A stretch of DNA of 64,000 nucleotides from Trypanosoma brucei (Eukaryota), in assembly GCA_000002445.1 (NCBI GenBank), contig CP000070.1, positions 480,001 to 544,000 on the forward strand. The letters are read 5' to 3'. A model generated the notes under the pieces. The model did no database searches and was not told where the DNA came from. It saw nothing but the letters and a program-made list of their open reading frames with translations. This document shows, piece by piece, positions 2,414 through 50,181 of the stretch (position 1 is its first letter; each line of letters starts with the position of its first letter). Position numbers and translations under genes: made by a program.

Positions 2414-4495
2414 CTACTCATGACCTCGTTTCCGTGTGAATGCTGGTGCATCTCGATATTTTCTCTCTTCATGATACGCTATTATAAGCTCTTTCTGTAT
2501 CTTTTTATCAAATGTTATTTGATACTGGTCAATACCATCCCAAAATACTTGTGTTTCCTCAGTTTGTTGCTCAGCATCAGCGGTGTTGTTGTTCACACAT
2601 CGTTGCCGCGTCTTAATCACACCACCATAAATAGCATTAACATATATCATCTCCCATGCCATGTTACGAGAAAAGGTATCCCAATCGGAAAAATACCTTG
2701 CAATGTTTGTCATAAATTCCTGTAACTCTGAAACACTTGCTTCTTTCCTGTAATTATCTGTTATTTGAATAAGCACAATAGTCTTTGAGGCAACTCCCAG
2801 TTGTGGAAAACCATCCCTCATATCCGCAACCCTTCTAGAGCAATCTTCCACAAAGAAAAAGCCATCCACAAAAAGCTTACTCTCCTCCAATGACCTGTAG
2901 AGCACTTTGTATTTACAGTTTCCAATTGCATTCTGTCCAGTTTTTGGCAAGAACTTTTGTTCAAAAATTTGAAACTGTTGTGGGGTCATATCTTTCAGGA
3001 TGCTACGCTTGTCTTCCGTCTCTCCGAGTCTTCGGAGGTAGTTCAAATGTTTTGTGACCACACAAAAGACTCTAGGAAAGAGAAGTGAAACCAAAGCCCT
3101 TGTTTTAAGCGAGTAGGCTCCGACCTTACCGTATTCCATCATGAATTCATGGGATGACATACTTTCCGCAACATCTGCAAACAGCGTACAGAGTATCATA
3201 TTCCCAATGGCAACTGATAGAGGTCTACAGTGGTATGATTCGAGGTTGCCATATCTGCTCCTCTCCCGTACAATCTTTATTAACGATTCTGTGAAATGAT
3301 TACCTTTCCATTCAAAATATTTTCCCATCATCATATCATAGCCATCTCGTCTATTACAACTGAGACTGCTTAGATACCCTATTACTGCCGCCTCACGACA
3401 GCCAGCTCCATTACTGAAAACATAACGAGGCAGCGGCCCCACAAAGTCAACACGTCTCTCCACCAACCTCCACTCATCCTCTAGCTCTTCCTTAACCTTC
3501 AAACGAGCATTTTCATCGAGAGTCGTATAGTTGGGAAATAGGGACAGTTTCTTCCAAGCCACAAACGCCTTAATGTCACGTACGTCATCGCAGTTTAAAA
3601 TTATCCTTGTTTGTTCCAGGTTCTTCATCCAGTACTTGTAGCTAACTCCATCTGGGGGTGCGAGGACAGTCACACCCCAAACATTTCTTGGGATCTCATA
3701 AGGCAGAGTTTCCTTACGACTATTAATATCAAAAATAATATGCCCTCTTTTTTTTAGACGCATTTCCTTAATAACATTAGTGACGTCTTCTCTCTTGTAC
3801 AATACAACCCTCCCTTCCTCATTCCCCTTCTTGTTGTATATAAGGTAAGCTTTGGAACCCGTGAAAAACACAACGACATCAAGCATTCCTTCATGGAAGT
3901 GAAGTAGGGAATGAAGTAAAAATGATCCAACTCCACATGATTTTCCAATACCAGATATACCAATGACAATGTGTGTTGGTGGTGTGCTCTCTGTCTTTTC
4001 CACCCACCATGCATTTAATTTTCGTTGTATTATATACCACACACGCATCATTTCACGACGGATGTAGACATTATTGTCCAATATCCCAATTCTCTGATAT
4101 AAACTAATGAGAGAACATTGAAATCTATCTGAGGGCCAACCCATCTTTGATGTAAGGACAAAGATCTCCAGGCCAGTGGGTCTCTCCTCAAGTTCCGCAT
4201 CAACTTCACAATGTTCAGGAGTTATATCAACTTCTTCTTCCGTCCATATGTGTTGTGGTCTTCCAAAGAATACCTTCATACCGAGTGGCTCTTGATTATA
4301 ACCTGACATCACATAACTCCACTTCGCATAATACAGAGACTCATATAACTCCTCTTCACGAGATTTCCTTTTTCCAGTTACCGATGGATTCTGCATCTGT
4401 CGTCCACCTCGTTCCTGCACTTCACCTTGTGCACGATTAAACCGTTCGTTAAACACATTCTGAGTATTTCCCATATTGCCGTTGTTTTGAATCAT
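2414..4495 (-). CDS. Multicopy P-loop NTPase-like protein, copy 1 (693 aa, cassette type A). Candidate RHS (retrotransposon hot spot) family member.
   Basis: Intact 693-aa ORF with ATG at 4493-4495 (cat on the + strand). Walker A motif IVIGISGIGKSCG. The ORF is conserved in frame in six tandem copies. The RHS name is an inference from the trypanosomatid multicopy tandem context, not a detected domain hit. Confidence 0.8.
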   Translation of the reverse strand: MIQNNGNMGNTQNVFNERFNRAQGEVQERGGRQMQNPSVTGKRKSREEELYESLYYAKWSYVMSGYNQEPLGMKVFFGRPQHIWTEEEVDITPEHCEVDAELEERPTGLEIFVLTSKMGWPSDRFQCSLISLYQRIGILDNNVYIRREMMRVWYIIQRKLNAWWVEKTESTPPTHIVIGISGIGKSCGVGSFLLHSLLHFHEGMLDVVVFFTGSKAYLIYNKKGNEEGRVVLYKREDVTNVIKEMRLKKRGHIIFDINSRKETLPYEIPRNVWGVTVLAPPDGVSYKYWMKNLEQTRIILNCDDVRDIKAFVAWKKLSLFPNYTTLDENARLKVKEELEDEWRLVERRVDFVGPLPRYVFSNGAGCREAAVIGYLSSLSCNRRDGYDMMMGKYFEWKGNHFTESLIKIVRERSRYGNLESYHCRPLSVAIGNMILCTLFADVAESMSSHEFMMEYGKVGAYSLKTRALVSLLFPRVFCVVTKHLNYLRRLGETEDKRSILKDMTPQQFQIFEQKFLPKTGQNAIGNCKYKVLYRSLEESKLFVDGFFFVEDCSRRVADMRDGFPQLGVASKTIVLIQITDNYRKEASVSELQEFMTNIARYFSDWDTFSRNMAWEMIYVNAIYGGVIKTRQRCVNNNTADAEQQTEETQVFWDGIDQYQITFDKKIQKELIIAYHEERKYRDAPAFTRKRGHE

Positions 4496-8001: not shown

Positions 8002-10083
8002 CTACTCATGACCTCTTTTCCGTGTGAATGCTGGTGCATCTCGATATTTTCTCTCTTCATGATACGCTATTATAAGCTCTTTCTGTATCTTTTTATCAAA
8101 TGTTATTTGATACTGGTCAATACCATCCCAAAATACTTGTGTTTCCTCAGTTTGTTGCTCAGCATCAGCGGTGTTGTTGTTCACACATCGTTGCCGCGTC
8201 TTAATCACACCACCATAAATAGCATTAACATATATCATCTCCCATGCCATGTTACGAGAAAAGGTATCCCAATCGGAAAAATACCTTGCAATGTTTGTCA
8301 TAAATTCCTGTAACTCTGAAACACTTGCTTCTTTCCTGTAATTATCTGTTATTTGAATAAGCACAATAGTCTTTGAGGCAACTCCCAGTTGTGGAAAACC
8401 ATCCCGCATATCCGCAACCCTTCTAGAGCAATCTTCCACAAAGAAAAAGCCATCCACAAAAAGCTTACTCTCCTCCAATGACCTGTAGAGCACTTTGTAT
8501 TTACAGTTTCCAATTGCATTCTGTCCAGCTTCTGGCAAGAACTTTTGTTCAAAAATTTGAAACTGTTGTGGGGTCATATCTTTCAGGATGCTACGCTTGT
8601 CTTCCGTCTCTCCGAGTCTTCGGAGGTAGTTCAAATGTTTTGTGACCACACAAAAGACTCTAGGAAAGAGAAGTGAAACCAAAGCCCTTGTTTTAAGCGA
8701 GTAGGCTCCGACCTTACCGTATTCCATCATGAATTCATGGGATGACATACTTTCCGCAACATCTGCAAACAGCGTACAGAGTATCATATTCCCAATGGCA
8801 ACTGATAGAGGTCTACAGTGGTATGATTCGAGGTTGCCATATCTGCTCCCCTCCCGTACAATCTTTATTAACGATTCTGTGAAATCATTACCTTTCCATT
8901 CAAAATATTTTCCCATCATCATATCATAGCCATCTCGTCTATTACAACTGAGACTGCTTAGATACCCTATTACTGCCGCCTCACGACAGCCAGCTCCATT
9001 ACTGAAAACATAACGAGGCAGCGGCCCCACAAAGTCAACACGTCTCTCCACCAACCTCCACTCATCCTCTAGCTCTTCCTTAACCTTCAAACGAGCATTT
9101 TCATCGAGAGTCGTATAGTTGGGAAATACGGACAGTTTCTTCCAAGCCACAAACGCCTTAATGTCACGTACGTCATCGCAGTTTAAAATTATCCTTGTTT
9201 GTTCCAGGTTCTTCATCCAGTACTTGTAGCGAACTCCATCTGGGGGTGCGAGGACAGTCACACCCCAAACATTTCTTGGGATCTCATAAGGCAGAGTTTC
9301 CTTACGACTATTAATATCAAAAATAATATGCCCTCTTTTTTTTAGACGCATTTCCTTAATAACATTAGTGACGTCTTTTCTCTTGTACAATACAACCCTC
9401 CCTTCCTCATTCCCCTTCTTGTTGTATATAAGGTAAGCTTTGGAACCCGTGAAATACACAACGACATCAAGCATTCCTTCATGGAAGTGAAGTAGGGAAT
9501 GAAGTAAAAATGATCCAACTCCACATGATTTTCCAATACCAGATATACCAATGACAATGTGTGTTGGTGGTGTGCTCTCTGTCTTTTCCACCCACCATGC
9601 ATTTAATTTTCGTTGTATTATATACCACACACGCATCATTTCACGACGGATGTAGACATTATTATCCAATATCCCAATTCTCTGATATAAACTAATGAGA
9701 GAACATTGAAATCCGCATGATGGGTTACATATCTTTGATGTAAGGACAAAGATCTCCAGGCCAGTGGGTCTCTCCTCAAGTTCCGCATCAACTTCACAAT
9801 GTTCAGGAGTTATATCCACTTCTTCTTCCGTTCATATGTGTTGTGGTCTTCCAAAGAATACCTTCATACCGAGTGGCTCTTGATTATAACCTGACATCAC
9901 ATAACTCCACTTCGCATAATACAGAGACTCATATAACTCCTCTTCACGAGATTTGCTTTTTCCAGTTACCGATGGATTCTGCATCTGCCGTCCACCTTGT
10001 TCATGCACTTCACCTTGTGCACGATTAAACCGTTCGTTAAACACATTCTGAGTATTTCTCATATTGCCGTTGTTTTGAATCAT
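8002..10083 (-). pseudogene. Copy 2 of the P-loop protein gene, disrupted by a nonsense codon: TGG to TGA, coding-strand stop at 9832-9834.
   Basis: The N-terminal 83 codons (from ATG at 10083) end at ...RPQHI followed by a stop. Other copies read HIWTEE. Here the + strand has gttcatatg where the others have gtccatatg. The rest of the ORF (605 aa) continues in frame. There is also a private variant patch SKICNPSCGFQ. Confidence 0.8.
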
Positions 10084-13612: not shown

Positions 13613-15688
13613 CTACTCATGACCTCGTTTCCGTGTGAATGCTGGTGCATCTCGATATTTTCTCTCTTCATGATACGCTATTATAAGCTCTTTCTGTATC
13701 TTGTTATCAAATGTTATTTGATACTGGTCAATACCATCCCAAAATACTTGTGTTTCCTCAGTTTGTTGCTCAGCATCAGCGGTGTTGTTGTTCACACATC
13801 GTTGCCGCGTCTTAATCACACCACCATAAATAGCATTAACATATATCATCTCCCATGCCATGTTACGAGAAAAGGTATCCCAATCGGAAAAATACCTTGC
13901 AATGTTTGTCATAAATTCCTGTAACTCTGAAACACTTGCTTCTTTCCTGTAATTATCTGTTATTTGAATAAGCACAATAGTCTTTGAGGCAACTCCCAGT
14001 TGTGGAAAACCATCCCTCATATCCGCAACCCTTCTAGAGCAATCTTCCACAAAGAAAAAGCCATCCACAAAAAGCTTACTCTCCTCCAATGACCTGTAGA
14101 GCACCTTGTATTTACAGTTTCCAATTGCATTCTGTCCAGTTTTTGGTAAGAACTTTTGTTCAAAAATTTGAAACTGTTGTGGGGTCATATCTTTCAGGAT
14201 GCTACGCTTGTCTTCCGTCTCTCCGAGTCTTCGGAGGTAGTTCAAATGTTTTGTGACCACACAAAAGACTCTAGGAAAGAGAAGTGAAACCAAAGCCCTT
14301 GTTTCAAGCGAGTAGGCTCCGACCTTACCGTATACGCTTTCACTATGTTTCTCAACCATCAGTGTTGCAACAGTTGAAAACAGCGTACAGAGTATCATAT
14401 TCCCAATGGCAACTGATAGAGGTCTACAGTGGTATGATTCGAGGTCGTCATATCTGCCCCCCTCCCGTACAATCTTCACTAAACTGTGAACCACTTTTTC
14501 ACTTTTCCACGTAAAATATTTTTCCAGAATCGTTTCATACTCTTCTTTCTTCTCATTTTCTAGGCTTCTTAGGTAATCACTGATATCCTGCAGCCGGTTG
14601 GTGTAACTTTGCTTGCTGAAAACATAACGAGGCAGCGGCCCCACAACGTCAACACGTCTCTCCACTAACCTCCACTCATCCTCTAGCTCTTCCTTAACCT
14701 TCGCACGAGCATTTTCATCGAGAGTCGTATAGTTGGGAAATAGGGACAGTTTCTTCCAGGCCACAAACGCCTTAATGTCACGTACGTCATCGCAGTTTAA
14801 AATCACATTCCAACTGAAATAGTCCTTCTCCCAATGTTTATAATAGTATGTATCCGGAGTGTTGAGTGTAGTTATTCCCCACCCAAGATATTGGGTCTCA
14901 TAAGGCGGAGTCTCATCAGGTCCATCAGTATCAAAAATAATATGCCCTCTTTTTTTCAAACGCATTTCTTTAATAACATTAGTGACGTCTTTTCTCTTGT
15001 ACAATACAACCCTCCCTTCCTCATTCCCCTTCTTGTTGTATATAAGGTAGGCGTCCACATCCGTGAAATACACAACGACATCAAGCATTCCTTCATGGAA
15101 GTGAAGTAGGGAATGAAGTAAAAATGATCCAACTCCACATGATTTTCCAGTCCCTGGAATACCAATGACAATGTGTGTTGGTGGTGTGCTCTCTGTCTTT
15201 TGCACCCACCATGCATTTAATTTTCGTTGTATTATATACCACACACGCATCATTTCACGACGGATGTAGACATTATTGTCCATTATACCACTTTCATCAT
15301 TGATACCTAATTGAAACGTAGCTGATGGCCAACCCATCTTTGATGTAAGGACAAAGATCTCCAGGCCAGTGGGTCTCTCCTCAAGTTCCGCATCAACTTC
15401 ACAATGTTCAGGAGTTATATCCACTTCTTCTTCCGTCCATATGTGTTGTGGTCTTCCAAAGAATACCTTCATACCGAGTGGCTCTTGATTATAACCTGAC
15501 ATCACATAACTCCACTTCGCATAATACAGAGACTCATATAACTCCTCTTCACGAGATTTCCTTTTTCCAGTTACCGATGGATTCTGCATCTGTCGTCCAC
15601 CTCGTTCCTGCACTTCACCTTGTGCACGATTAAACCGTTCGTTAAACACATTCTGAGTATTTCCCATATTGCCGTTGTTTTGAATCAT
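13613..15688 (-). CDS. Multicopy P-loop NTPase-like protein, copy 3 (691 aa, cassette type B). Candidate RHS family.
   Basis: Intact ORF with ATG at 15686-15688. Walker A variant IVIGIPGTGKSCG. Three internal segments are replaced relative to copy 1. Confidence 0.8.
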   Translation of the reverse strand: MIQNNGNMGNTQNVFNERFNRAQGEVQERGGRQMQNPSVTGKRKSREEELYESLYYAKWSYVMSGYNQEPLGMKVFFGRPQHIWTEEEVDITPEHCEVDAELEERPTGLEIFVLTSKMGWPSATFQLGINDESGIMDNNVYIRREMMRVWYIIQRKLNAWWVQKTESTPPTHIVIGIPGTGKSCGVGSFLLHSLLHFHEGMLDVVVYFTDVDAYLIYNKKGNEEGRVVLYKRKDVTNVIKEMRLKKRGHIIFDTDGPDETPPYETQYLGWGITTLNTPDTYYYKHWEKDYFSWNVILNCDDVRDIKAFVAWKKLSLFPNYTTLDENARAKVKEELEDEWRLVERRVDVVGPLPRYVFSKQSYTNRLQDISDYLRSLENEKKEEYETILEKYFTWKSEKVVHSLVKIVREGGRYDDLESYHCRPLSVAIGNMILCTLFSTVATLMVEKHSESVYGKVGAYSLETRALVSLLFPRVFCVVTKHLNYLRRLGETEDKRSILKDMTPQQFQIFEQKFLPKTGQNAIGNCKYKVLYRSLEESKLFVDGFFFVEDCSRRVADMRDGFPQLGVASKTIVLIQITDNYRKEASVSELQEFMTNIARYFSDWDTFSRNMAWEMIYVNAIYGGVIKTRQRCVNNNTADAEQQTEETQVFWDGIDQYQITFDNKIQKELIIAYHEERKYRDAPAFTRKRGHE

Positions 15689-19214: not shown

Positions 19215-21287
19215 CTACTCATGACCTCGTTTCCGTGTGAATGCTGGTGCATCTCGATATTTTCTCTCTTCATGATACGCTATTATAAGCTCTTTCTGTA
19301 TCTTGTTATCAAATGTTATTTGATACTGGTCAATACCATCCCAAAATACTTGTGTTTCCTCAGTTTGTTGCTCAGCATCAGCGGTGTTGTTGTTCACACA
19401 TCGTTGCCGCGTCTTAATCACACCACCATAAATAGCATTAACATATATCATCTCCCATGCCATGTTACGAGAAAAGGTATCCCAATCGGAAAAATACCTT
19501 GCAATGTTTGTCATAAATTCCTGTAACTCTGAAACACTTGCTTCTTTCCTGTAATTATCTGTTATTTGAATAAGCACAATAGTCTTTGAGGCAACTCCCA
19601 GTTGTCGAAAACCATCCCGCATATCCGCAACCCTTCTAGAGCAATCTTCCACAAAGAAAAAGCCATCCACAAAAAGCTTACTCTCTTCAAATGACCTGTA
19701 GAGCACCTTGTATTTACAGTTTCCAATTGCATTCTGTCCAGTTTTTGGTAAGAACTTTTGTTCAAAAATTTGAAACTGTTGTGGGGTCATATCTTTCAGG
19801 ATGCTACGCTTGTCTTCCGTCTCTCCGAGTCTTCGGAGGTAGTTCAAATGTTTTGTGACCACACAAAAGACTCTAGGAAAGAGAAGTGAAACCAAAGCCC
19901 TTGTTTCAAGCGAGTAGGCTCCGACCTTACCGTATACGCTTTCACTATGTTTCTCAACCATCAGTGTTGCAACAGTTGAAAACAGCGTACAGAGTATCAT
20001 ATTCCCAATGGCAACTGATAGAGGTCTACAGTGGTATGATTCGAGGTTGCCATATCCGCTCCCCTCCCGTACAATCTTCACTAAACTGTGAACCACTTTT
20101 TCACTTTTCCACGTAAAATATTTTTCCAGAATCGTTTCATACTCTTCTTTCTTCTCATTTTCTAGGCTTCTTAGGTAATCACTGATATCCTGCAGCCGGT
20201 TGGTGTAACTTTGCTTGCTGAAAACATAACGAGGCAGCGGCCCCACAACGTCAACACGTCTCTCCACTAACCTCCACTCATCCTCTAGCTCTTCCTTAAC
20301 CTTCGCACGAGCATTTTCATCGAGAGTCGTATAGTTGGGAAATAGGGACAGTTTCTTCCAGGCCACAAACGCCTTAATGTCACGTACGTCATCGCAGTTT
20401 AAAATCACATTCCAACTTAAATAGTCCTTCTCCCAATGTTCATAATAGTGTGTATCCGGAGTGTTGAGTGTAGTTATTCCCCACCCAAGATATTGGGTCT
20501 CATAAGGCGGAGTCTCATCAGGTCCATCAGTATCAAAAATAATATGCCCTCTTTTTTTAAAACGCATTTCTTCAATAACATTAGTGACGTCTTTTCTCTT
20601 GTACAATACAACCCTCCCTTCCTCATTCCCCTTCTTGTTGTATATAAGGTAAGCTTTGGCATCCGTGAAATACACAACGACATCAAGCATTCCTTCATGG
20701 AAGTGAAGTAGGGAATGAAGTAAAAATGATCCAACTCCACATGATTTTCCAGTCCCTGGAATACCAATGACAATGTGTGTTGGTGGTCTCTCTGTCTTTT
20801 GCACCCACCATGCATTTAATTTTTGTTGTATTATATACCACACACGCATCATTTCACGACGGATGTAGACATTATTGTCCATTATACCACTTTCATCATT
20901 GATACCTAATTGAAACGTAGCTGATGGCCAACCCATCTTTGATGTAAGGACAAAGATCTCCAGGCCAGTGGGTCTCTCCTCAAGTTCCGCATCAACTTCA
21001 CAATGTTCAGGAGTTATATCAACTTCTTCTTCCGTCCATATGTGTTGTGGTCTTCCAAAGAATACCTTCATACCGAGTGGCTCTTGATTATAACCTGACA
21101 TCACATAACTCCACTTCGCATAATACAGAGACTCATATAACTCCTCTTCACGAGATTTCCTTTTTCCAGTTACCGATGGATTCTGCATCTGTCGTCCACC
21201 TCGTTCCTGCACTTCACCTTGTGCACGATTAAACCGTTCGTTAAACACATTCTGAGTATTTCTCATATTGCCGTTGTTTTGAATCAT
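19215..21287 (-). CDS. Multicopy P-loop NTPase-like protein, copy 4 (690 aa, type B).
   Basis: Intact ORF with ATG at 21285-21287. Walker A is GIPGTGKS. Confidence 0.8.
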   Translation of the reverse strand: MIQNNGNMRNTQNVFNERFNRAQGEVQERGGRQMQNPSVTGKRKSREEELYESLYYAKWSYVMSGYNQEPLGMKVFFGRPQHIWTEEEVDITPEHCEVDAELEERPTGLEIFVLTSKMGWPSATFQLGINDESGIMDNNVYIRREMMRVWYIIQQKLNAWWVQKTERPPTHIVIGIPGTGKSCGVGSFLLHSLLHFHEGMLDVVVYFTDAKAYLIYNKKGNEEGRVVLYKRKDVTNVIEEMRFKKRGHIIFDTDGPDETPPYETQYLGWGITTLNTPDTHYYEHWEKDYLSWNVILNCDDVRDIKAFVAWKKLSLFPNYTTLDENARAKVKEELEDEWRLVERRVDVVGPLPRYVFSKQSYTNRLQDISDYLRSLENEKKEEYETILEKYFTWKSEKVVHSLVKIVREGSGYGNLESYHCRPLSVAIGNMILCTLFSTVATLMVEKHSESVYGKVGAYSLETRALVSLLFPRVFCVVTKHLNYLRRLGETEDKRSILKDMTPQQFQIFEQKFLPKTGQNAIGNCKYKVLYRSFEESKLFVDGFFFVEDCSRRVADMRDGFRQLGVASKTIVLIQITDNYRKEASVSELQEFMTNIARYFSDWDTFSRNMAWEMIYVNAIYGGVIKTRQRCVNNNTADAEQQTEETQVFWDGIDQYQITFDNKIQKELIIAYHEERKYRDAPAFTRKRGHE

Positions 21288-24808: not shown

Positions 24809-26872
24809 TCATTTCCGTGTGAATGCTGGTGCATCTCGATATTTTCTCTCTTCATGATACGCTATTATAAGCTCTTTCTGTATCTTGTTATCAAATGTTA
24901 TTTGATACTGGTCAATACCATCCCAAAATACTTGTGTTTCCTCAGTTTGTTGCTCAGCATCAGCGGTGTTGTTGTTCACACATCGTTGCCGCGTCTTAAT
25001 CACACCACCATAAATAGCATTAACATATATCATCTCCCATGCCATGTTACGAGAAAAGGTATCCCAATCGGAAAAATACCTTGCAATGTTTGTCATAAAT
25101 TCCTGTAACTCTGAAACACTTGCTTCTTTCCTGTAATTATCTGTTATTTGAATAAGCACAATAGTCTTTGAGGCAACTCCCAGTTGTGGAAAACCATCCC
25201 TCATATCCGCAACCCTTCTAGAGCAATCTTCCACAAAGAAAAAGCCATCCACAAAAAGCTTACTCTCCTCCAATGACCTGTAGAGCACCTTGTATTTACA
25301 GTTTCCAATTGCATTCTGTCCAGTTTTTGGTAAGAACTTTTGTTCAAAAATTTGAAACTGTTGTGGGGTCATATCTTTCAGGATGCTACGCTTGTCTTCC
25401 GTCTCTCCGAGTCTTCGGAGGTAGTTCAAATGTTTTGTGACCACACAAAAGACTCTAGGAAAGAGAAGTGAAACCAAAGCCCTTGTTTCAAGCGAGTAGG
25501 CTCCGACCTTACCGTATACGCTTTCACTATGTTTCTCAACCATCAGTGTTGCAACAGTTGAAAACAGCGTACAGAGTATCATATTCCCAATGGGAACTGA
25601 TAGAGGTCTACAGTGGTATGATTCGAGGTCGTCATATCTGCCCCCCTCCCGTACAATCTTCACTAAACTGTGAACCACTTTTTCACTTTTCCACGTAAAA
25701 TATTTTTCCAGAATCGTTTCATACTCTTCTTTCTTCTCATTTTCTAGGCTTCTTAGGTAATCACTGATATCCTGCAGCCGGTTGGTGTAACTTTGCTTGC
25801 TGAAAACATAACGAGGCAGCGGCCCCACAACGTCAACACGTCTCTCCACCAACCTCCACTCATCCTCTAGCTCTTCCTTAACCTTCGCACGAGCATTTTC
25901 ATCGAGAGTCGTATAGTTGGGAAATAGGGACAGTTTCTTCCAGGCCACAAACGCCTTAATGTCACGTACGTCATCGCAGTTTAAAATCACATTCCAACTT
26001 AAATAGTCCTTCTCCCAATGTTCATAATAGTGTGTATCCGGAGTGTTGAGTGTAGTTATTCCCCACCCAAGATATTGGGTCTCATAAGGCGGAGTCTCAT
26101 CAGGTCCATCAGTATCAAAAATAATATGCCCTCTTTTTTTCAAACGCATTTCTTTAATAACATTAGTGACGTCTTTTCTCTTGTACAATACAACCCTCCC
26201 TTCCTCATTCCCCTTCTTGTTGTATATAAGGTAAGCTTTGGCATCCGTGAAATACACAACGACATCAAGCATTCCTTCATGGAAGTGAAGTAGGGAATGA
26301 AGTAAAAATGATCCAACTCCACATGATTTTCCAGTCCCTGGAATACCAATGATAATGTGTGTTGGTGGTGTGCTCTCTGTCTTTTGCACCCACCATTCTT
26401 TTAATTTTTGTTGTATTATATACCACACACGCATCATTTCACGACGGATGTAGACATTATTGTCCATTATACCACTTTCATCATTGATACCTAATTGAAA
26501 CGTAGCTGATGGCCAACCCATCTTTGATGTAAGGACAAAGATCTCCAGGCCAGTGGGTCTCTCCTCAAGTTCCGCATCAACTTCACAATGTTCAGGAGTT
26601 ATATCCACTTCTTCTTCCGTCCATATGTGTTGTGGTCTTCCAAAGAATACCTTCATACCGAGTGGCTCTTGATTATAACCTGACATCACATAACTCCACT
26701 TCGCATAATACAGAGACTCATATAACTCCTCTTCACGAGATTTCCTTTTTCCAGTTACCGATGGATTCTGCATCTGTCGTCCACCTCGTTCCTGCACTTC
26801 ACCTTGTGCACGATTAAACCGTTCGTTAAACACATTCTGAGTATTTCTCATATTGCCGTTGTTTTGAATCAT
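24809..26872 (-). CDS. Multicopy P-loop NTPase-like protein, copy 5 (687 aa, type B). The C-terminus is 4 aa shorter because CGA became TGA.
   Basis: Intact ORF with ATG at 26870-26872. It ends ...FTRK rather than ...FTRKRGHE. Confidence 0.8.
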   Translation of the reverse strand: MIQNNGNMRNTQNVFNERFNRAQGEVQERGGRQMQNPSVTGKRKSREEELYESLYYAKWSYVMSGYNQEPLGMKVFFGRPQHIWTEEEVDITPEHCEVDAELEERPTGLEIFVLTSKMGWPSATFQLGINDESGIMDNNVYIRREMMRVWYIIQQKLKEWWVQKTESTPPTHIIIGIPGTGKSCGVGSFLLHSLLHFHEGMLDVVVYFTDAKAYLIYNKKGNEEGRVVLYKRKDVTNVIKEMRLKKRGHIIFDTDGPDETPPYETQYLGWGITTLNTPDTHYYEHWEKDYLSWNVILNCDDVRDIKAFVAWKKLSLFPNYTTLDENARAKVKEELEDEWRLVERRVDVVGPLPRYVFSKQSYTNRLQDISDYLRSLENEKKEEYETILEKYFTWKSEKVVHSLVKIVREGGRYDDLESYHCRPLSVPIGNMILCTLFSTVATLMVEKHSESVYGKVGAYSLETRALVSLLFPRVFCVVTKHLNYLRRLGETEDKRSILKDMTPQQFQIFEQKFLPKTGQNAIGNCKYKVLYRSLEESKLFVDGFFFVEDCSRRVADMRDGFPQLGVASKTIVLIQITDNYRKEASVSELQEFMTNIARYFSDWDTFSRNMAWEMIYVNAIYGGVIKTRQRCVNNNTADAEQQTEETQVFWDGIDQYQITFDNKIQKELIIAYHEERKYRDAPAFTRK

Positions 26873-30387: not shown

Positions 30388-32454
30388 TCATTTCCGTGTG
30401 AATGCTGGTGCATCTCGATATTTTCTCTCTTCATGATACGCTATTATAAGCTCTTTCTGTATCTTTTTATCAAATGTTATTTGATACTGGTCAATACCAT
30501 CCCAAAATACTTGTGTTTCCTCAGTTTGTTGCTCAGCATCAGCGGTGTTGTTGTTCACACATCGTTGCCGCGTCTTAATCACACCACCATAAATAGCATT
30601 AACATATATCATCTCCCATGCCATGTTACGAGAAAAGGTATCCCAATCGGAAAAATACCTTGCAATGTTTGTCATAAATTCCTGTAACTCTGAAACACTT
30701 GCTTCTTTCCTGTAATTATCTGTTATTTGAATAAGCACAATAGTCTTTGAGGCAACTCCCAGTTGTGGAAAACCATCCCTCATATCCGCAACCCTTCTAG
30801 AGCAATCTTCCACAAAGAAAAAGCCACCAACAAGGGGCTTACTCTCTTCAAATGACCTGTAGAGCACCTTGTATTCACAGTTTCCAATTGCATTCTGTCC
30901 AGCTTCTGGTAAGAACTTTTGTTCAACAAGTTGAAACTGTTGTGGGGTCATATCTTTCAGGATGCTACGCTTGTCTTCCGTCTCTCCGAGTCTTCGGAGG
31001 TAGTTCAAATGTTTTGTGACCACACAAAAGACTCTAGGAAAGAGAAGTGAAACCAAAGCCCTTGTTTTAAGCGAGTAGGCTCCGACCTTACCGTATCCCA
31101 TCATGAATTCAAGGGATGACATACTTTTCGCAACAGTTGCAAACAGCGTACAGAGTATCATATTCCCAATGGCAACTGATAGAGGTCTACAGTGGTATGA
31201 TTCGAGGTTGCCATATCTGCTCCTCTCCCGTACAATCTTTATTAACGGTTGTGTGAAATCATTACCTTTCCATTCAAAATATTTTCCCATCATCATATCA
31301 TAGCCATCTCGTCTATTACAACTGAGACGGCTTAGATACCTTATTACCTCCAACTCACGACAGTTACCTCGATTACCGAAAACATAACGAGGCAGCGGCC
31401 CCACTACGTCAACACGTCTCTCCACCAACCTCCACTCATCCTCTAGCTCTTCCTTAACCTTCGCACGAGCATTTTCATCGAGAGTCGTATAGTTGGGAAA
31501 TAGGGACAGTTTCTTCCAAGCCACAAACGCCTTAATGTCACGTACGTCATCGCAGTTTAAAATTATCCTTGTTTGTTCCAGGTTCTTCATCCAGTACTTG
31601 TAGCGAACTCCATCTGGGGGTGCGAGGACAGTCACACCCCAAACATTTCTTGGGATCTCATAAGGCAGAGTTTCCTTAGGACTATTAATATCAAAAATAA
31701 TATGCCCTCTTTTTTTCAAACGCATTTCTTCAATAACATTAGTGACGTCTTTTCTCTTGTACAATACAACCCTCCCTTCCTCATTCCCCTTCTTGTTGTA
31801 TATAAGGTAAGCTTTGGCATCCGTGAAATACACAACGACATCAAGCATTCCTTCATGGAAGTGAAGTAGGGAATGAAGTAAAAATGATCCAACTCCACAT
31901 GATTTTCCAATACCAGATATACCAATGACAATGTGTGTTGGTGGTCTCTCTGTCTTTTGCACCCACCATGCATTTAATTTTTGTTGTATTATATACCACA
32001 CACGCATCATTTCACGACGGATGTAGACATTATTGTCCAATATCCCAATTCTCTGATATAAACTAATTAGACCACCTTGAAATCTATCTGAGGGCCAACC
32101 CATCATTGATGTAAGGACAAAGATCTCCAGGCCAGTGGGTCTCTCCTCAAGTTCCGCATCAACTTCACAATGTTCAGGAGTTATATCCACTTCTTCTTCC
32201 GTCCATATGTGTTGTGGTCTTCCAAAGAATACCTTCATACCGAGTGGCTCTTGATTATAACCTGACATCACATAACTCCACTTCGCATAATACAGAGACT
32301 CATATAACTCCTCTTCACGAGATTTCCTTTTTCCAGTTACCGATGGATTCTGCATCTGTCGTCCACCTCGTTCCTGCACTTCACCTTGTGCACGATTAAA
32401 CCGTTCGTTAAACACATTCTGAGTATTTCCCATATTGCCGTTGTTTTGAATCAT
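30388..32454 (-). CDS. Multicopy P-loop NTPase-like protein, copy 6 (688 aa). A chimera of type A and type B cassettes.
   Basis: Intact ORF with ATG at 32452-32454. GISGIGKS (A-like) is followed by YFTDAKAY (B-like), then an A-like FDINSPKETLPYEIP block, then B-like ARAKVKEE...VDVVGPLP. Confidence 0.8.
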   Translation of the reverse strand: MIQNNGNMGNTQNVFNERFNRAQGEVQERGGRQMQNPSVTGKRKSREEELYESLYYAKWSYVMSGYNQEPLGMKVFFGRPQHIWTEEEVDITPEHCEVDAELEERPTGLEIFVLTSMMGWPSDRFQGGLISLYQRIGILDNNVYIRREMMRVWYIIQQKLNAWWVQKTERPPTHIVIGISGIGKSCGVGSFLLHSLLHFHEGMLDVVVYFTDAKAYLIYNKKGNEEGRVVLYKRKDVTNVIEEMRLKKRGHIIFDINSPKETLPYEIPRNVWGVTVLAPPDGVRYKYWMKNLEQTRIILNCDDVRDIKAFVAWKKLSLFPNYTTLDENARAKVKEELEDEWRLVERRVDVVGPLPRYVFGNRGNCRELEVIRYLSRLSCNRRDGYDMMMGKYFEWKGNDFTQPLIKIVRERSRYGNLESYHCRPLSVAIGNMILCTLFATVAKSMSSLEFMMGYGKVGAYSLKTRALVSLLFPRVFCVVTKHLNYLRRLGETEDKRSILKDMTPQQFQLVEQKFLPEAGQNAIGNCEYKVLYRSFEESKPLVGGFFFVEDCSRRVADMRDGFPQLGVASKTIVLIQITDNYRKEASVSELQEFMTNIARYFSDWDTFSRNMAWEMIYVNAIYGGVIKTRQRCVNNNTADAEQQTEETQVFWDGIDQYQITFDKKIQKELIIAYHEERKYRDAPAFTRK

Positions 32455-33547: not shown

Positions 33548-33734
33548 GATGGAAACTGAAGATACATCTATGTGAGCATAGCGTTGTGTGAGTAGAAATC
33601 ATGTGCATATTTTATCTTAATCTTTCCCTATATTGTACTCACTCACTCGTAAAACTTAATCATGGAAATAAAGTTTAGGGAATAGTAAAGTTGTTCTTCC
33701 ACTCGCATCAAGACACAAATACCTGCTTTCTGTC
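33548..33734. repeat. Partial 7th unit (first 187 bp of the unit), the array edge.
   Basis: Matches unit positions 1-187, then diverges into unique sequence (tttgaatgtgttgattttgg...). Confidence 0.85.
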
Positions 33735-34252
33735 TTTGAATGTGTTGATTTTGGTGTCTGTGTGATAAGGCCTGTTTTCGTAATAGTTTTCGTCGGCGTT
33801 TTATCACTCTGAGAATAAATTTTCTCTACGTAGGTAAAATTTTTTTTTTGTATTTCTAGTTGGTGCTGGAGAAAAATGTTAAAGTGGAGTTCGCAAATTA
33901 TGGGTATTAGGTGGAAATGGTTATGTGTGTGGGGTGAGCATCAGTTAGAGTTTCTTAAAATTAAAGGAATTTTGTGTGTTACCATTCCCAGGAGTGAAAA
34001 ACATACAACGTTTAAAGTTTTTTTTTCTTGATTGTTTGCTTCTCTGACACCGTTCGCGTTGGTAATTTAGCCCTCAGGTGGTGCGGTTGCGGGGTGATCT
34101 TGTCGTTAGGAGGGTTGGTAGGAACAACAGTTTCCACAATGTGCTGTGGAGCACGCAGCTGCGCGGGTAAATTAACACTCCGCCTTCGCTAATCCAATAT
34201 GTACCGTTAGGTTCGTGCTCACCACCAAGGTAATCGACGACGGTTTGGCTGT

Positions 34253-35352: not shown

Positions 35353-37776
35353 CTAACGAGTTTCCCTCTCCCTCCAAGAGGTTATTTTGCTCCAAGGGTT
35401 CTGGAGTTTCCTGAACTCCTTGCCGTCATCTGCAGACGGAATGTAAAACTCAAAGGGTGGTTTAACCGCTTGCAGGTGACGATACGCTTCCCCACGCTTT
35501 GCCTTCTGGACAAAGAACAATCGCAACCGTGGCACACCATTATTTAGACCCCCTTCCTCGCAGACAAATTCACCGGCGAAGTCATGCAGTACTCGCGCAA
35601 TTGTGACGGTATTTGCATGCTCGCCATTCACCACGATAACGTGAGCTGCTACCAATTTGTCTTCCTGACAAATGCGCTCCATGAAAAATAACGGCGAGTG
35701 CTGCTCAGGTGTCGCTATTGCTACGCTTAGCAACGGATCTGGAAGCTTAGTTTTGGGCGTCCTTGTCAGTAGGCATCCACGGCGGGGCTCAGGATCGACA
35801 GACTCAGAATTTATGTGATAGTAGTGGCACATGTTGTGAACGATGGCTCGCTTAGGGGCGGCCATTGCACCCAAACACATGACCCCTTCGCAGCCTACCA
35901 CGAAGGTATGAAGTATCCTTTCAAACTTCCGTATTTGTTCTACATCGGTCAATGCAGCTTCCCAAAGGAAGACGGAGTACTTGATCGGTGGATGCGGCTT
36001 TATACGCTTCGAGAGAATTTCAAGACGCTGCACAGCCAGGCACTCCGCATCGCACTTAATCAAGTAGCGCTGCCCCTGGTGTTCTTTCTTGAACTGAATT
36101 AATTTCCCACACGAAACCTGAACAACTCGACGGCGGCATTCGCAGTGTAGCTCTTCAACCACGATGCAGACCGGGCAGTTTGCCGATCCATGACATTTTG
36201 ACGCACATGCATGACCACAGACATCTTGAATTTTTCCACATGGTTGTCCACAGGGTCGCTGTTCATCAACACACGGTCCGCCGTGACAAAACCGCACACA
36301 CTTGTGACCACAAGATAATTGCTTACCACACTTATACGTGCACGTTGTAGACTCGGCGCTGCAGGGAACGTTTCGCACAATCCGGTGTCCACCGGCGCAA
36401 AGTCGTTCAACTGGAAACATACATGGCGGACAGTCACCGAAGTGACAAATATGACTACCTGTCGGGTGGCCGCATGGCAAAGGAACGCTACATGGTCTAT
36501 TGCATTGTGGTGGCTTAGTTCCGCAAGGCTGCGGGGGCATCAATTCCTCAGCACCGCATCTGCATCGTAGGCGTTCGGAGACTACATTGGGGCATGAGGG
36601 GCACGGACCACGGTGGCACAACTCCATGCAATTGTGGCCACAAGAAAGTTTTTTGTTGCACACTTGCCGGCAACAGTGCGCATCAGCATTATTTCCTTTA
36701 CGTGCGGGACAACACCGCGCGCGACATTGGTGCTTCCCGCAGGAGAGAGCAGCCTTACACACCTTGTTACAACGAAAACTACGCCGCATCAGACAAGGAA
36801 GAGTGGCCTGCGTCTTTCCACACGAACACGTCGCTGCGACCTGCTGCTGGCATGGTTCACAACCTCCCTCGTGGCATTTGGCATCACATTTGTGTTCACC
36901 GCAGTCCAGCCAACGCCCACACACGTTGCCGCAAACTGGCACGGGGTCACTGCACCGCGTCCTGACAACCACCAGAGGTACTGAGCCACAAGGACACGTT
37001 GCTACAACACTAGGGTCAGTCTTGCAAGGAGGACATGTGCCCTCGTGGCACATTCTTTCACAGTGGTGGACCCCACATTTCAATTCCCTGCCACATACCT
37101 TTCCGCAAGAGAAAACGGTGGAGCCGCACCGCATCGGCCTGACCTCCGACCCGCAGTGGCATGACGTGGTGGACTGCTTTGAGCAACCGCGACACGCCCC
37201 GTGGTGGCACTTGTCTGGACATAAGTGCTTTCCACAGGATAACATCTTCCCACAAATTCTATCGCATGTTTTCAACGGGTCCGGTTGACCACACCTCCAT
37301 GTGTACGAGGTGGAGCCACATCCACACGAACCGGGGCCGGATACGGCACTACACGGCACGCAGGGCCCCGGGTGACAAGGCAATGGACAACTATGCGGGC
37401 AGTTGTTGGGGCGAGCCTTTCCGCACGTATCTCCACAGCTATGGGGTGTGATGTGGGGATCATATTTTGGATCTCGCACCTTGCCACAGAAGCAGTAATA
37501 TTTCAGGTCAGACCGCTGCACAACTTGACAGTGTGGGCAACGAAAAGCATTGCCATCCCCACTTGCATCCTCTTTTGCCCATCGCTTTATGCAATAGAGG
37601 TGAAAAATACAGTAGCAATCTCTACACGAGAACACAGCCTTATCATGACGTATTTTGTTTAAGCAGTTGGCGCACTCATACCTTAGCGACTTGAGTTGCT
37701 CAGCGATACCATTGATCCTCTGTACAACCGCATCGTAACTGCTGCCGTCCTGATCGCCTGCAGTTGAACAGTTCAT
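35353..37776 (-). CDS. NF-X1-type zinc-finger protein (807 aa from the first ATG). N-terminal RING/PHD-like Cys/His cluster followed by about 10 tandem Cys-rich NF-X1 fingers.
   Basis: The ORF track starts at GTG 37785. The first ATG is at 37774-37776 (MNCSTAG...). There are repeated C-x-H-x-C-x3-C-H-x-G-x-C modules. The extreme Cys content matches the NFX1 family. Confidence 0.75.
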   Translation of the reverse strand: MNCSTAGDQDGSSYDAVVQRINGIAEQLKSLRYECANCLNKIRHDKAVFSCRDCYCIFHLYCIKRWAKEDASGDGNAFRCPHCQVVQRSDLKYYCFCGKVRDPKYDPHITPHSCGDTCGKARPNNCPHSCPLPCHPGPCVPCSAVSGPGSCGCGSTSYTWRCGQPDPLKTCDRICGKMLSCGKHLCPDKCHHGACRGCSKQSTTSCHCGSEVRPMRCGSTVFSCGKVCGRELKCGVHHCERMCHEGTCPPCKTDPSVVATCPCGSVPLVVVRTRCSDPVPVCGNVCGRWLDCGEHKCDAKCHEGGCEPCQQQVAATCSCGKTQATLPCLMRRSFRCNKVCKAALSCGKHQCRARCCPARKGNNADAHCCRQVCNKKLSCGHNCMELCHRGPCPSCPNVVSERLRCRCGAEELMPPQPCGTKPPQCNRPCSVPLPCGHPTGSHICHFGDCPPCMFPVERLCAGGHRIVRNVPCSAESTTCTYKCGKQLSCGHKCVRFCHGGPCVDEQRPCGQPCGKIQDVCGHACASKCHGSANCPVCIVVEELHCECRRRVVQVSCGKLIQFKKEHQGQRYLIKCDAECLAVQRLEILSKRIKPHPPIKYSVFLWEAALTDVEQIRKFERILHTFVVGCEGVMCLGAMAAPKRAIVHNMCHYYHINSESVDPEPRRGCLLTRTPKTKLPDPLLSVAIATPEQHSPLFFMERICQEDKLVAAHVIVVNGEHANTVTIARVLHDFAGEFVCEEGGLNNGVPRLRLFFVQKAKRGEAYRHLQAVKPPFEFYIPSADDGKEFRKLQNPWSKITSWRERETR

Positions 37777-38220
37777 GCGAGTCACACCCCAGCAAATCTA
37801 AAGAGTAGCGCCGAGTCGCAGTGAAAATGAAGGAAGGAAGGAAAAGAACACTTACACCGCAGGTGAACGGAGAAAGGCATGCTATTTCCCTGCATAACGT
37901 CATCCGGCAAACACTCATGTTGGTTGGGTCTGCCACCTCCTTTTTCCCCTTTTACTCTCTCATCCTCCTGCGTTCGGTGGGTTCACCAAACGGTGGCAGA
38001 AGAAAAAACCGAAGTGACTGCGAAGCTTCACCGAAAATTTCGTGCCAGCGGTTCACAGGTATGTAATCAACCGCAAGTAATGAAACGAAGAGAACGAATA
38101 CAAAAACAAAACAGTCGGTAAAAGCAAACGTATCCTCAAATCCGATACCAAATAAGGCACACCGTACACTGTATTTAGACTCGAATACCACCACCCATCT
38201 ATACCTGAGCTTGCCTCGTC

Positions 38221-48014: not shown

Positions 48015-49931
48015 AATGATAAAAGGTAAAATATTTTTTTTTTCAAAAATGAAAAAGGAAAGAAACAACACGCCAAAGAAAAAAAAAAGAAAAAGAGAAA
48101 CAGCGATGAGTTTCATGTATGTGTGGCATGTTTTCTTTTTTGTTTCTTTTCTGTTCTCCTTCGCAACATTGAATTAACAAGGAACATTGAATAAGTAAAA
48201 GAAAAAAAAGGAAATAAAACGGGACACAGAAGTACACATTTCATTTCATATCATATCATTATATATTTGGTCATGCAAATGTATACAAATATATAAACAA
48301 ACTTTTTGCATACATTTGCTTTCTGTTTTGTTTTCTCTGCTAAAATAGAGCAACATATATATATATATATTTTTTATTTATTTATTTAGAAAGAAAATAA
48401 AAGAAGGAAGAAAAACAAAACAATACAACATTAAATAGCAGAGGCAAAAAGACATTCAGATGCGTGAATGAGCACAAAAAACGCAAAACAAAAAAAAGGT
48501 CTCAGATATAAAAAAAAAGGAGGGAAAGTAAAGTAAAGGAAAGGAAAGGAAAGGAAAACGAAAAAGATAGACTTCGTGTGAGATTGAGAGTTCTGACATT
48601 GGTGATTTCGTATAAATCAAGGAAAACATAACTTTTCTTTTTTTCTTCTTTTTTTTTTCTGTTTCTTCTGTTTATTCTTTTATTTTTTGTAGTTTTTTTT
48701 GTTGATTAATTAAATCCACACGTAAGGAGGAGGGGAAAAGAAGTGCTAACGTCACCACTTGCACAAGTGGTTTTTCCGTTGTGAACATATTACTCCTTTT
48801 TTCATATATTATTTATTTATATATTTTTTCCCTTTTTCAACTGACATCGCTAATAAATGCAATGAAATAAAAAGAGAGAGAGACGTCACACAACCCGCAA
48901 CTGACGTGGAGAGCAAACAAAAAAGAAAACGAAAAAAAAACAAATCACAAAAACTAAATAAAAAGAAAAAGGACTACACGCGAACCTCGAGCAAAGTCAA
49001 TAATAATAATAATAGTAATAAAAGAAGCACCGGTATAATTACAAAAAAAAACTTTCTCTTTCTTTCTTTTTTTTTAAAAATAAAAGAAATAGATCATGAG
49101 AATAACAAATAAATAAAATAATGATCGTTTTTTTTTCCCCCTTTCCTTTGACAAATCAACTTGTCAAATTTGAAATACGAACAGTATATAGAAATATATA
49201 TAAATGTTATACAAACACACCGGTTATGCCGATCAGAACTCCCTCGACACTAATTTTCTAAAGAAAAGGGAGAGGGAGAGAGAGAGAAAAAAAAAAGAAG
49301 TCGAAAAACATCCCCTTCCTTTTTTTCTTTGCAAAATAACATCAAATGTTCATTTTAATAACGGTTTATTTTATTTTCTCATTTTATTCTATTTTTTTAA
49401 ATTTCACTCTGTTTGTTTTTCCCTCCCCCGTAAAAAAAGAAAAAACACTTTTCTGAACACCTTTACATTCCCGCCATTACGCTTTGGCCACTGTAAGGAT
49501 GAAGGTAAAAAAAAAAAAGAAAAGAGAACAAGTGAAACGGAACCAAACAACAATAATAATTTTTAAAAAGGTAAGGAGGAAGAGGGTTGCACATTTTATT
49601 TAGTTATTTATCGCATTATTACTATTGTAATAAACCTTATCATCTGTTGTCCCTTTTTTTTTTCCTCCTTTTCACTTGGGGACATCGTCGTTGCATTATC
49701 AGCAATTAAAACCACATGTACTAAAACGCAAAAACACATGAAACGTTAAATAAAAATACACAAATATAAATGATTAAATATATTTGTATCCATGCAGGTG
49801 AGGGCGGGAGTATGCACATATATCAACTGTTAAATATATAAATATATAAATAAATATATATATATATGTTTATATGTGCGTGTGTTAAACTCGCACATAC
49901 ATGTATGAATAGTTATGTATAAATATATAGT

Positions 49932-49935
<4 letters not shown>

Positions 49936-49966
<31 letters not shown>
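49936..49966. repeat. (TA)15 microsatellite.
   Basis: Read directly. Confidence 0.9.
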
Positions 49967-49969
<3 letters not shown>

Positions 49970-50181
49970 CTTGATTTCCTTTTCTTATTTCTTAACGCTG
50001 CCGATGATTCCGCTATAATAACAGTTGTTCCTCATTATTCTAATTTACTCTCTCTCTCTCATCCCTTTCTTTCTTTATCGTGCACCAACATCTTAACGTA
50101 TGATTTGTTTGTGATTGAATGCTTAGTTCGTGTCTTGTTTGTTTGTTTTTGTTACCGCTCAATCAACATAATGTTAATCGG

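What the first reader, a model, noticed from the sequence alone, without database searches (positions are those of the whole stretch)
2414..4495. Identity and function of the repeated P-loop protein. RHS-family is the best guess but is unverified.
The protein has a canonical Walker A (GxxGxGKS) about 175 residues from the N-terminus. A hydrophobic stretch ending in D (GHIIFD) about 70 residues later may be a Walker B. No other motif I can name with certainty.
In T. brucei-like genomes, the RHS family is the known family of ~700-900 aa P-loop proteins occurring in near-identical tandem subtelomeric copies with frequent pseudogenes. RHS proteins have been linked to chromatin, transcription elongation and mRNA export. 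This copy family is shorter than I remember typical RHS proteins to be, and its array shows no RIME or ingi insertion. It may therefore be a distinct or divergent NTPase family.
Basis: inference. Interest (0 to 1): 0.55.

Follow-up and report, generated by a model that had tools for sequence, protein, structure and literature searches.

The report
Trypanosoma brucei RHS7 gene array

Summary
ORF 2414..4495 (-) encodes 693 aa, with Walker A GISGIGKS at aa 179-186 and GHIIFD at aa 251-256. Pfam settles the family: RHSP P-loop domain E=1.4e-53 and RHS_N E=3.2e-34. The protein is residue-for-residue XP_845822.1 of T. b. brucei TREU927. Flanking genes ERCC1, CGM1 and GMP synthase correspond to Tb927.7.2060, .2080 and .2100. 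That places the array at Tb927.7.2030, published as RHS7 (array "Tb55": 10 copies in T. b. brucei, 20 in T. b. gambiense).

The protein is short because it lacks the N-terminal DUF7578 extension, as RHS4 does. The array sits beside housekeeping genes, not in a subtelomere. No unit carries a RIME or ingi insertion. Copy 2 is a pseudogene through a single nonsense change (W84*).

The six copies form two types that are 85-86% identical, differing in mosaic patches. Published work already notes this divergence.

An AlphaFold model (pLDDT 83) resembles ORC/Cdc6, STAND (NLR, Apaf-1, CED-4) and mS29/DAP3 ATPases. The C-terminal domain matches no known family.

RHS7 function has not been tested. Published transcriptomes restrict its expression to tsetse salivary-gland stages. 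The most likely role is a stage-specific ATP-binding factor in the RHS transcription and mRNA-export network.

Verdict: already known, low interest.

The parts
2414..4495 (-). RHS7 copy 1, the focal gene. 693 aa, type A. Identical to XP_845822.1 / AAZ12263.1.
   Evidence: ORF. Pfam RHSP plus RHS_N. Exact-sequence look-up.
3989..4345 (-). RHS_N domain (PF20445), aa 51-169 of copy 1.
   Evidence: E=3.2e-34, 118.1 bits. The model shows a mixed strand/helix region with pLDDT 84-96 over most of aa 41-120.
3035..3970 (-). RHSP P-loop domain (PF07999), aa 176-487. It contains an AAA+/STAND-like nucleotide-binding core, a helical region carrying the conserved G353-P354-x-P-R357 motif, and a beta hairpin at aa 406-425.
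   Evidence: E=1.4e-53, covering model positions 1-311 of 312. AlphaFold secondary structure. Fold matches. Residue conservation.
3938..3961 (-). Walker A, GISGIGKS (aa 179-186). Type B copies read GIPGTGKS.
3728..3745 (-). Walker B-like strand GHIIFD (aa 251-256). No acidic residue follows D256.
2417..3034 (-). C-terminal alpha/beta domain (aa 488-693) that defines RHS sub-families. Family motifs are FPxVD...LQxT...WExIY...RQxC...FW...QYQV. It matches no Pfam or PDB sequence.
   Evidence: Alignment A6. No PDB hit. No Pfam hit. Secondary structure.
8002..10083 (-). RHS7 copy 2, type A, a pseudogene. A single TGG>TGA change gives W84* at window 9832-9834. The rest is collinear with copy 1, with no indel.
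13613..15688 (-). RHS7 copy 3, type B, 691 aa. Identical to XP_845823.1.
19215..21287 (-). RHS7 copy 4, type B, 690 aa. Identical to XP_845824.1.
24809..26872 (-). RHS7 copy 5, type B, 687 aa. Identical to XP_845825.1.
30388..32454 (-). RHS7 copy 6, type A-like, 688 aa. Identical to XP_845826.1. Inferred to be Tb927.7.2030 from the numbering of the neighbouring genes.
   Evidence: Anchor genes. Tb927.7.2030 is named RHS7 in PMC4477658.
1..33847 (-). Tandem array of about 5.6-kb units, each a 2.1-kb CDS plus about 3.5 kb of AT-rich spacer without ORFs. The array runs off the left edge of the window. On the right it ends in a degenerate partial unit at 33548-33847.
   Evidence: Repeat families with spacings of 5577-5611 bp. 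No spacer ORF longer than 104 aa. GC profile.

Best explanation
The repeated protein is RHS7, the seventh sub-family of the Trypanosoma-specific retrotransposon hot spot (RHS) proteins. It is encoded by the known chromosome-internal tandem array on T. brucei TREU927 chromosome 7, around Tb927.7.2030 (probability about 0.98). Its architecture is RHS_N, then a P-loop module, then a sub-family-specific C-terminal alpha/beta domain. It lacks the DUF7578 N-terminal extension of the longer paralogues. From the model, the P-loop module has an AAA+/STAND-type fold close to ORC/Cdc6, Apaf-1/NLR and mS29/DAP3. It keeps an intact Walker A and Walker B aspartate but has no acidic residue after that aspartate. 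It most likely works as an ATP-binding conformational or assembly switch with slow or partner-stimulated hydrolysis, not as a processive motor (inference, about 0.6). By analogy with RHS2, RHS4 and RHS6, its most likely role is as a stage-specific member of the chromatin and RNA polymerase II network that supports transcription elongation and mRNA export. Published transcriptomes place its expression in tsetse salivary-gland stages (inference, about 0.35; no experiment exists for RHS7). The confidence of 0.85 given here applies to the identification, not to the proposed role.
Confidence: 0.85

Rival explanations
1. The array is drifting towards non-functionality. On this view RHS7 is a dispensable or decaying RHS offshoot, and its copies persist mainly through tandem duplication and gene conversion.
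For: dN/dS is 0.75-1.05 in every pairwise comparison, and published values for the array are dN 0.0647 and dS 0.0658. One of the six copies carries a nonsense mutation. Many T. b. gambiense copies are annotated as fragments or pseudogenes. The mRNA is absent from most life-cycle stages.
Against: Five of six copies keep intact ORFs of 687-693 aa. Walker A and B and all family-wide conserved residues are invariant. Long blocks (aa 1-120, 299-360, 481-693) are almost without replacement changes (one in the 30-codon windows that lie within them), while the differences sit in discrete patches. That pattern points to gene conversion between two maintained types, and it inflates apparent dN/dS. Both types occur in T. 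b. brucei, T. b. gambiense and T. equiperdum. Expression is regulated and stage-specific, not absent.
Confidence: 0.12
2. The protein is a distinct, non-RHS NTPase family, such as a KAP or classical AAA ATPase.
For: It is shorter than most RHS proteins, and no RIME or ingi is present in the array.
Against: Both RHS Pfam domains match end to end at E 1e-53 and 1e-34, and no KAP or AAA Pfam model matches at E<=1. It shares 44-51% identity over 91-100% of its length with RHS paralogues, including RHS4, which has the same short architecture.
Confidence: 0.01
3. RHS proteins, RHS7 included, are STAND-like sensor ATPases joined to a degenerate PD-(D/E)xK-type nuclease-fold domain. On this view they act in control of retroelements or foreign nucleic acid, and RHS7 is the version used in the tsetse salivary-gland stages where meiosis and mating occur.
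For: STAND proteins (NLRP2, Apaf-1, NLRP14, TIR-NLRs, CED-4, Avs) are among the best fold matches. A GxP-like motif, G353-P354-x-P-R357, is almost invariant. The C-terminal domain has strand-strand-strand-helix-strand order, with a conserved 'FPxVD' at the start of one strand and 'LQxT' in the next. Variation between copies is patchy with pN at or above pS in aa 391-480. Earlier literature suggested that RHS proteins might control retroelement expansion (quoted in PMC7563717).
Against: ORC/Cdc6, mS29 and generic AAA+ proteins score as well as the STAND proteins. The position expected to hold (D/E)xK reads QxT in the family and QIT in RHS7, so no catalytic lysine is present. The C-terminal domain could not be searched on its own, and it has no sequence match to any nuclease family. 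The experimental data for paralogues point to transcription and export.
Confidence: 0.1

Closest known systems
RHS7 sub-family, T. brucei TREU927 chromosome 7 array (Tb927.7.2010-2030; array Tb55 of Jackson 2007 and 2010)
   Same: The sequences are identical: XP_845822 to XP_845826 match copies 1 and 3-6. The neighbouring genes are the same. The published array is also tandem, with divergent 'copies 2-4', which correspond to window copies 5, 4 and 3.
   Different: Nothing differs. This is that locus.
RHS4 (for example P0012, Tb927.1.x, 685 aa)
   Same: Both have the short architecture: RHS_N plus RHSP with no DUF7578 extension. The N-termini are similar (MNQNGG... against MIQNNGN...). Identity is 44% over 100% of the length.
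   Different: [quoted passage not shown] RHS7 is chromosome-internal, restricted to salivary-gland stages and untested. The C-terminal domains differ, and RHS7 lacks the 'HxTT' histidine.
RHS paralogues of 837-858 aa (P0007, P0010, P0011, P0013)
   Same: They share the RHS_N, RHSP and C-terminal domains at 46-51% identity. The sequence just downstream of the P-loop, GVGSFLLHSLLHF, is identical.
   Different: They carry an extra N-terminal region of about 145 aa containing DUF7578. About 60% of RHS genes overall are disrupted by RIME or ingi insertion (PMC6393297).
ORC/Cdc6 and STAND (Apaf-1, CED-4, NLR) NTPases, and mitoribosomal mS29/DAP3
   Different: There is no detectable sequence similarity. 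No acidic residue follows the Walker B aspartate. The flanking RHS_N and C-terminal domains are different. Membership of any one of these families is not established.

Membership tests
RHS (retrotransposon hot spot) protein family | RHSP P-loop domain (PF07999) above the gathering score | tested here: met
   182.8 bits against a cut-off of 25, E=1.4e-53, covering model positions 1-311 of 312 at aa 176-487.
RHS (retrotransposon hot spot) protein family | RHS_N domain (PF20445) N-terminal to the P-loop domain | tested here: met
   118.1 bits against a cut-off of 21, E=3.2e-34, aa 51-169.
RHS (retrotransposon hot spot) protein family | ATP/GTP-binding (Walker A) motif in the conserved N-terminal half | tested here: met
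   GISGIGKS at aa 179-186, invariant in G179, G182, G184, K185 and S186 across all copies.
RHS (retrotransposon hot spot) protein family | Closest relatives are Trypanosoma RHS proteins (the family is genus-restricted) | tested here: met
   All 23 hits are annotated RHS proteins of T. brucei subspecies or T. vivax. There are 379 cluster representatives at E<=1e-3. No PDB sequence relatives were found.
RHS (retrotransposon hot spot) protein family | RIME or ingi retroelement inserted at the hot spot a few codons downstream of the P-loop motif (seen in many RHS pseudogenes) | tested here: not met
   No insertion is present in any of the six units. Unit spacing is 5577-5611 bp. The CDSs are collinear, with indels of 4 codons or fewer. 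No reverse-transcriptase ORF is present. This feature marks pseudogenes and is not required of intact members.
RHS (retrotransposon hot spot) protein family | Conservation of the DNA target sequence of the hot spot | not testable with these tools
   No DNA of RIME-bearing RHS pseudogenes could be fetched, and the original paper is not held. At protein level the flanking sequence GVGSFLLHSLLHF is identical to that of other RHS proteins.
RHS (retrotransposon hot spot) protein family | Subtelomeric location (typical of the family, not defining) | tested here: not met
   On the right the array abuts SET, NF-X1, ERCC1, DnaJ, CGM1 and GMP synthase genes on the same strand. ERCC1, CGM1 and GMP synthase correspond to the published core gene IDs Tb927.7.2060.2080 and .2100; the whole run therefore corresponds to Tb927.7.2040-2100 if the numbering goes up in steps of ten.
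RHS7 sub-family | Sequence identity with the chromosome 7 array genes named RHS7 | tested here: met
   Exact matches to XP_845822 to XP_845826 on the 2,205,233-bp TREU927 contig. Gene-number anchors place copy 6 at Tb927.7.2030, which is named RHS7. Tb927.7.2010 is also named RHS7.
AAA+ / STAND (ORC-Cdc6, Apaf-1/NLR type) NTPases | P-loop core fold of this class followed by a helical domain | tested here: met
AAA+ / STAND (ORC-Cdc6, Apaf-1/NLR type) NTPases | Acidic catalytic residue directly after the Walker B aspartate (hhhhDE or hhhhDD) | tested here: not met
   The position after D256 is I in type A and T in type B. In the family it is V26, I17, A6 or M5.
AAA+ / STAND (ORC-Cdc6, Apaf-1/NLR type) NTPases | GxP motif in the helical domain, and a winged-helix domain | tested here: inconclusive
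   G353 (65/65), P354 (60/66) and R357 (59/67) are conserved after a long helix, and a beta hairpin at aa 406-425 follows. Equivalence to the STAND GxP motif and winged-helix domain was not shown residue by residue.
   No such family was reported at E<=1.
PD-(D/E)xK nuclease fold (C-terminal domain) | Strand-borne D ... (D/E)xK catalytic motif on an alpha-beta-beta-beta-alpha-beta core | tested here: not met
   The secondary-structure order is compatible, and D544 is conserved (36/43). The next strand reads LQxT in the family and QIT in RHS7, with no lysine. There is no Pfam or PDB sequence match. The fold of the isolated domain could not be searched.

The most novel reading that the evidence does not exclude
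RHS proteins as a whole may be STAND/ORC-like switch ATPases fused to a catalytically degenerate nuclease-fold domain. RHS7, chromosome-internal and kept as two types, would then be a sexual-stage or salivary-gland-stage specialist, for example in retroelement or chromatin surveillance during meiosis, and not a general transcription factor. Neither the fold class nor this domain reading turned up for RHS proteins in the single full-text search made for them.
Probability: 0.1. Interest if true: 0.55.

Novelty: already known. Interest (0 to 1): 0.12.

Why it matters
As a discovery it matters little. The gene, its family, its sub-family name, the array, the copy-number difference between subspecies and even the divergence of three copies are all published. 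Two questions remain open: what RHS7 does, and what any RHS protein does biochemically. The fold assignment made here gives concrete mutational targets for anyone testing RHS biochemistry: K185, D256, R348, R357 and R410. That assignment is an AAA+/STAND-ORC-like nucleotide switch with no catalytic acid after Walker B, joined to an uncharacterised C-terminal alpha/beta domain. The salivary-gland restriction makes RHS7 a candidate marker or factor for the least understood part of the trypanosome life cycle.

Tried and rejected
1. The first AlphaFold run, with a 22-sequence alignment, gave pLDDT 46 and was discarded. A 76-sequence alignment that added cluster representatives gave pLDDT 83.
2. 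A second and a third homologous-protein search, each using a profile alignment, added almost nothing: the second returned the same hits plus one extra fragment (P0047) and the third the same 23 hits.
3. Profile searches of the full-length family and of the C-terminal domain against PDB sequences found nothing meaningful. The MRE11 hits at E about 0.3 were judged to be chance.
4. A member-wise Pfam scan of the C-terminal domain gave only scattered single-member hits at E>0.009.
5. Fetching DNA of other RHS genes to compare the hot-spot target failed. P0007 and P0011 are not on record, and genome contigs holds only prokaryotes.
6. The original RHS paper (Bringaud 2002) is not held.
7. An Rfam scan of the window found no matches, so it gave no HDV-like ribozyme hallmark of ingi or RIME.
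8. The afdb50 fold library was unavailable. The BFVD search gave only generic AAA+ hits.
9. The bacterial promoter and terminator scan is irrelevant for a trypanosome.
10. I tested whether the divergent patches of either copy type were imported from another RHS sub-family. The best non-RHS7 identity was only 36-59%, so this idea was rejected.

Full report
OBSERVATION. The ORF at 2414..4495 on the minus strand is real and encodes 693 aa from an ATG. It carries GISGIGKS at aa 179-186 (window 3938-3961). It carries GHIIFD at aa 251-256 (window 3728-3745). The gene is one of six copies in the window, at 2414, 8002, 13613, 19215, 24809 and 30388, all on the minus strand. They form a tandem array with a period of 5577-5611 bp. 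Each unit is a 2.1-kb CDS of about 39-41% GC plus about 3.5 kb of AT-rich spacer. The spacer holds no ORF longer than 104 aa.

IDENTITY. Pfam gives RHSP (PF07999, 'Retrotransposon hot spot protein, P-loop domain') at E=1.4e-53, matched end to end over aa 176-487. It gives RHS_N (PF20445) at E=3.2e-34 over aa 51-169. No KAP or AAA model matched at E<=1. All 23 database homologues are annotated RHS proteins of T. brucei subspecies or T. vivax. A full HMMER search of 1.84 billion cluster representatives found 379 relatives at E<=1e-3.

The exact sequence is XP_845822.1 / AAZ12263.1 of T. b. brucei TREU927, on a 2,205,233-bp contig. Copies 3-6 are XP_845823 to XP_845826.

To the right of the array, all on the same strand, lie genes with these domains:
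- SET
- NF-X1/R3H
- Rad10/ERCC1
- DnaJ
- capping enzyme plus cap N7-methyltransferase
- GMP synthase
- BAG
- Dcc1

Published gene IDs fit this order: TbERCC1 is Tb927.7.2060, CGM1 is Tb927.7.2080 and GMPS is Tb927.7.2100. With the usual steps of ten, copy 6 is Tb927.7.2030. Papers call that gene RHS7 (PMC4477658), and Tb927.7.2010 is also called RHS7 (PMC7952579). The array is 'Tb55' of Jackson, listed with 10 copies in T. b. brucei and 20 in T. b. gambiense (PMC2854126). The window starts inside a unit. A further RHS7 protein of the same contig (XP_845819) matches none of the window copies. The array therefore continues to the left of the window.

- Short length. The 837-858 aa paralogues carry an extra N-terminal region with DUF7578 (PF24466). 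RHS7 lacks it, and so does RHS4 at 685 aa.
- No RIME or ingi. This is true. Unit lengths differ by 34 bp or less, and the CDSs are collinear.
- Subtelomeric setting. This does not apply here. The array is embedded in core housekeeping genes.

Copy 2 is a pseudogene through one TGG>TGA change (W84*, window 9832-9834). It has no indel.

VARIATION BETWEEN COPIES. The copies are not uniformly near-identical. Type A comprises copies 1, 2 and 6. Type B comprises copies 3, 4 and 5. The two types share 85-86% aa identity.

The differences sit in patches at about aa 123-139, 257-298 and 361-455. In 30-codon windows within these patches, pS reaches 0.77 and pN reaches 0.49. Between the patches lie blocks that are almost unchanged: the 30-codon windows within aa 1-120, 301-330 and 481-690 hold one replacement and four synonymous differences in all. 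Whole-gene dN/dS is 0.75-1.05, close to the published dN 0.0647 and dS 0.0658.

Neither patch type is a recent import from another RHS sub-family; the best identity to a non-RHS7 protein is 36-59%. Both types occur in T. b. gambiense and T. equiperdum. [quoted passage not shown] These correspond to window copies 5, 4 and 3.

STRUCTURE AND LIKELY MECHANISM. A first AlphaFold model from 22 sequences was poor (pLDDT 46). A 76-sequence alignment gave pLDDT 83.4 and pTM 0.81. The model shows, in order:
- a helix at aa 147-165;
- strand 174-178, then Walker A, then helix 185-198;
- further strands, including 251-256 (the Walker B strand), 274-279 and 296-299;
- a long helix at 328-352;
- the nearly invariant G353-P354-x-P-R357 motif;
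- more helices;
- a beta hairpin at 406-425;
- a helical bundle running to about aa 482;
- a C-terminal alpha/beta domain.

Family-wide conserved residues are G179, G182, G184, K185, S186, D256, W273, P281, R348, G353, P354, R357 and R410. No acidic residue follows D256. From these motifs I infer a nucleotide-dependent switch or assembly factor with weak intrinsic hydrolysis.

The C-terminal domain (aa 488-693) has no Pfam or PDB sequence relative. It carries the family motifs FPxVD...LQxT...WExIY. Its strand order would allow a PD-(D/E)xK-like fold, but no (D/E)xK is present. This reading is only a lead.

FUNCTION. RHS2, RHS4 and RHS6 associate with Pol II transcription units. Their depletion lowers nascent RNA synthesis and blocks mRNA export (PMC6393297). 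RHS7 has not been studied functionally (PMC12774637). Its mRNA is restricted to tsetse salivary-gland forms and is not part of the metacyclic transcriptome (PMC8483307). That mRNA is stabilised by DRBD18 and rises on REG9.1 depletion.

The most likely role is a stage-specific member of the RHS transcription and export network (about 0.35). The rivals are a drifting, dispensable array (about 0.12) and a STAND-like surveillance role (about 0.1).

VERDICT. The locus is the known RHS7 array of T. brucei chromosome 7. Novelty: already known. Interest is low. The only additions here are the fold-level classification of the RHS NTPase module and the note that the C-terminal domain remains unassigned.

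Noticed in passing
window 13613-15688, 19215-21287 and 24809-26872, compared with 2414-4495, 8002-10083 and 30388-32454: There are two RHS7 sequence types (85-86% aa identity) with mosaic divergence. The patches at aa 123-139, 257-298 and 361-455 are highly diverged (pS up to 0.77), while the blocks between them show almost no differences. Both types are also present in T. b. gambiense and T. equiperdum. Jackson 2007 already noted the divergent 'copies 2-4'.
   Followed up: yes
window 9832-9834 (copy 2, 8002-10083, minus strand): Copy 2 is inactivated by a single nonsense substitution (TGG>TGA, W84*) at a tryptophan that is invariant in the T. brucei/T. vivax RHS alignments and kept in 62 of 66 sequences of the wider family alignment. 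No retroelement insertion or frameshift is involved.
   Followed up: yes
window 44263-50181: About 6 kb between the CGM1 capping-enzyme gene and the next gene holds only low-complexity ORFs of up to 120 aa. It has very low GC (28%) and strong AT skew (up to 0.22). It is probably long UTR or intergenic sequence.
   Followed up: partly
proteins P0119 (900 aa) and P0108 (876 aa): The C-terminal part of P0119, which aligns where the RHS C-terminal domain should be, looks like a non-LTR reverse transcriptase (motif ...HAFFADDLTIV...). This would fit an RHS ORF fused in frame to a retroelement. Both proteins also carry about 215 extra N-terminal residues.
   Followed up: no
copy 1 aa 279-280 (window 3656-3661) and aa 580-590 (window 2726-2758): RHS7 departs from otherwise conserved RHS positions. 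It has AP (type A) or NT (type B) where the family has [ST]S after strand 4. In the C-terminal domain it reads DNYRKEAS where most RHS proteins have a conserved 'HxTT' motif.
   Followed up: partly
window 36500-37288, plus strand: A 262-aa TTG-initiated ORF lies antisense inside the NF-X1-type zinc-finger gene (35353-37785, minus strand). It is most likely a spurious ORF in GC-rich coding sequence.
   Followed up: no
window 33548-33847: A degenerate partial repeat of the spacer (72% identity to the reference unit) marks the right-hand end of the array, about 400 bp from the SET-domain gene.
   Followed up: partly
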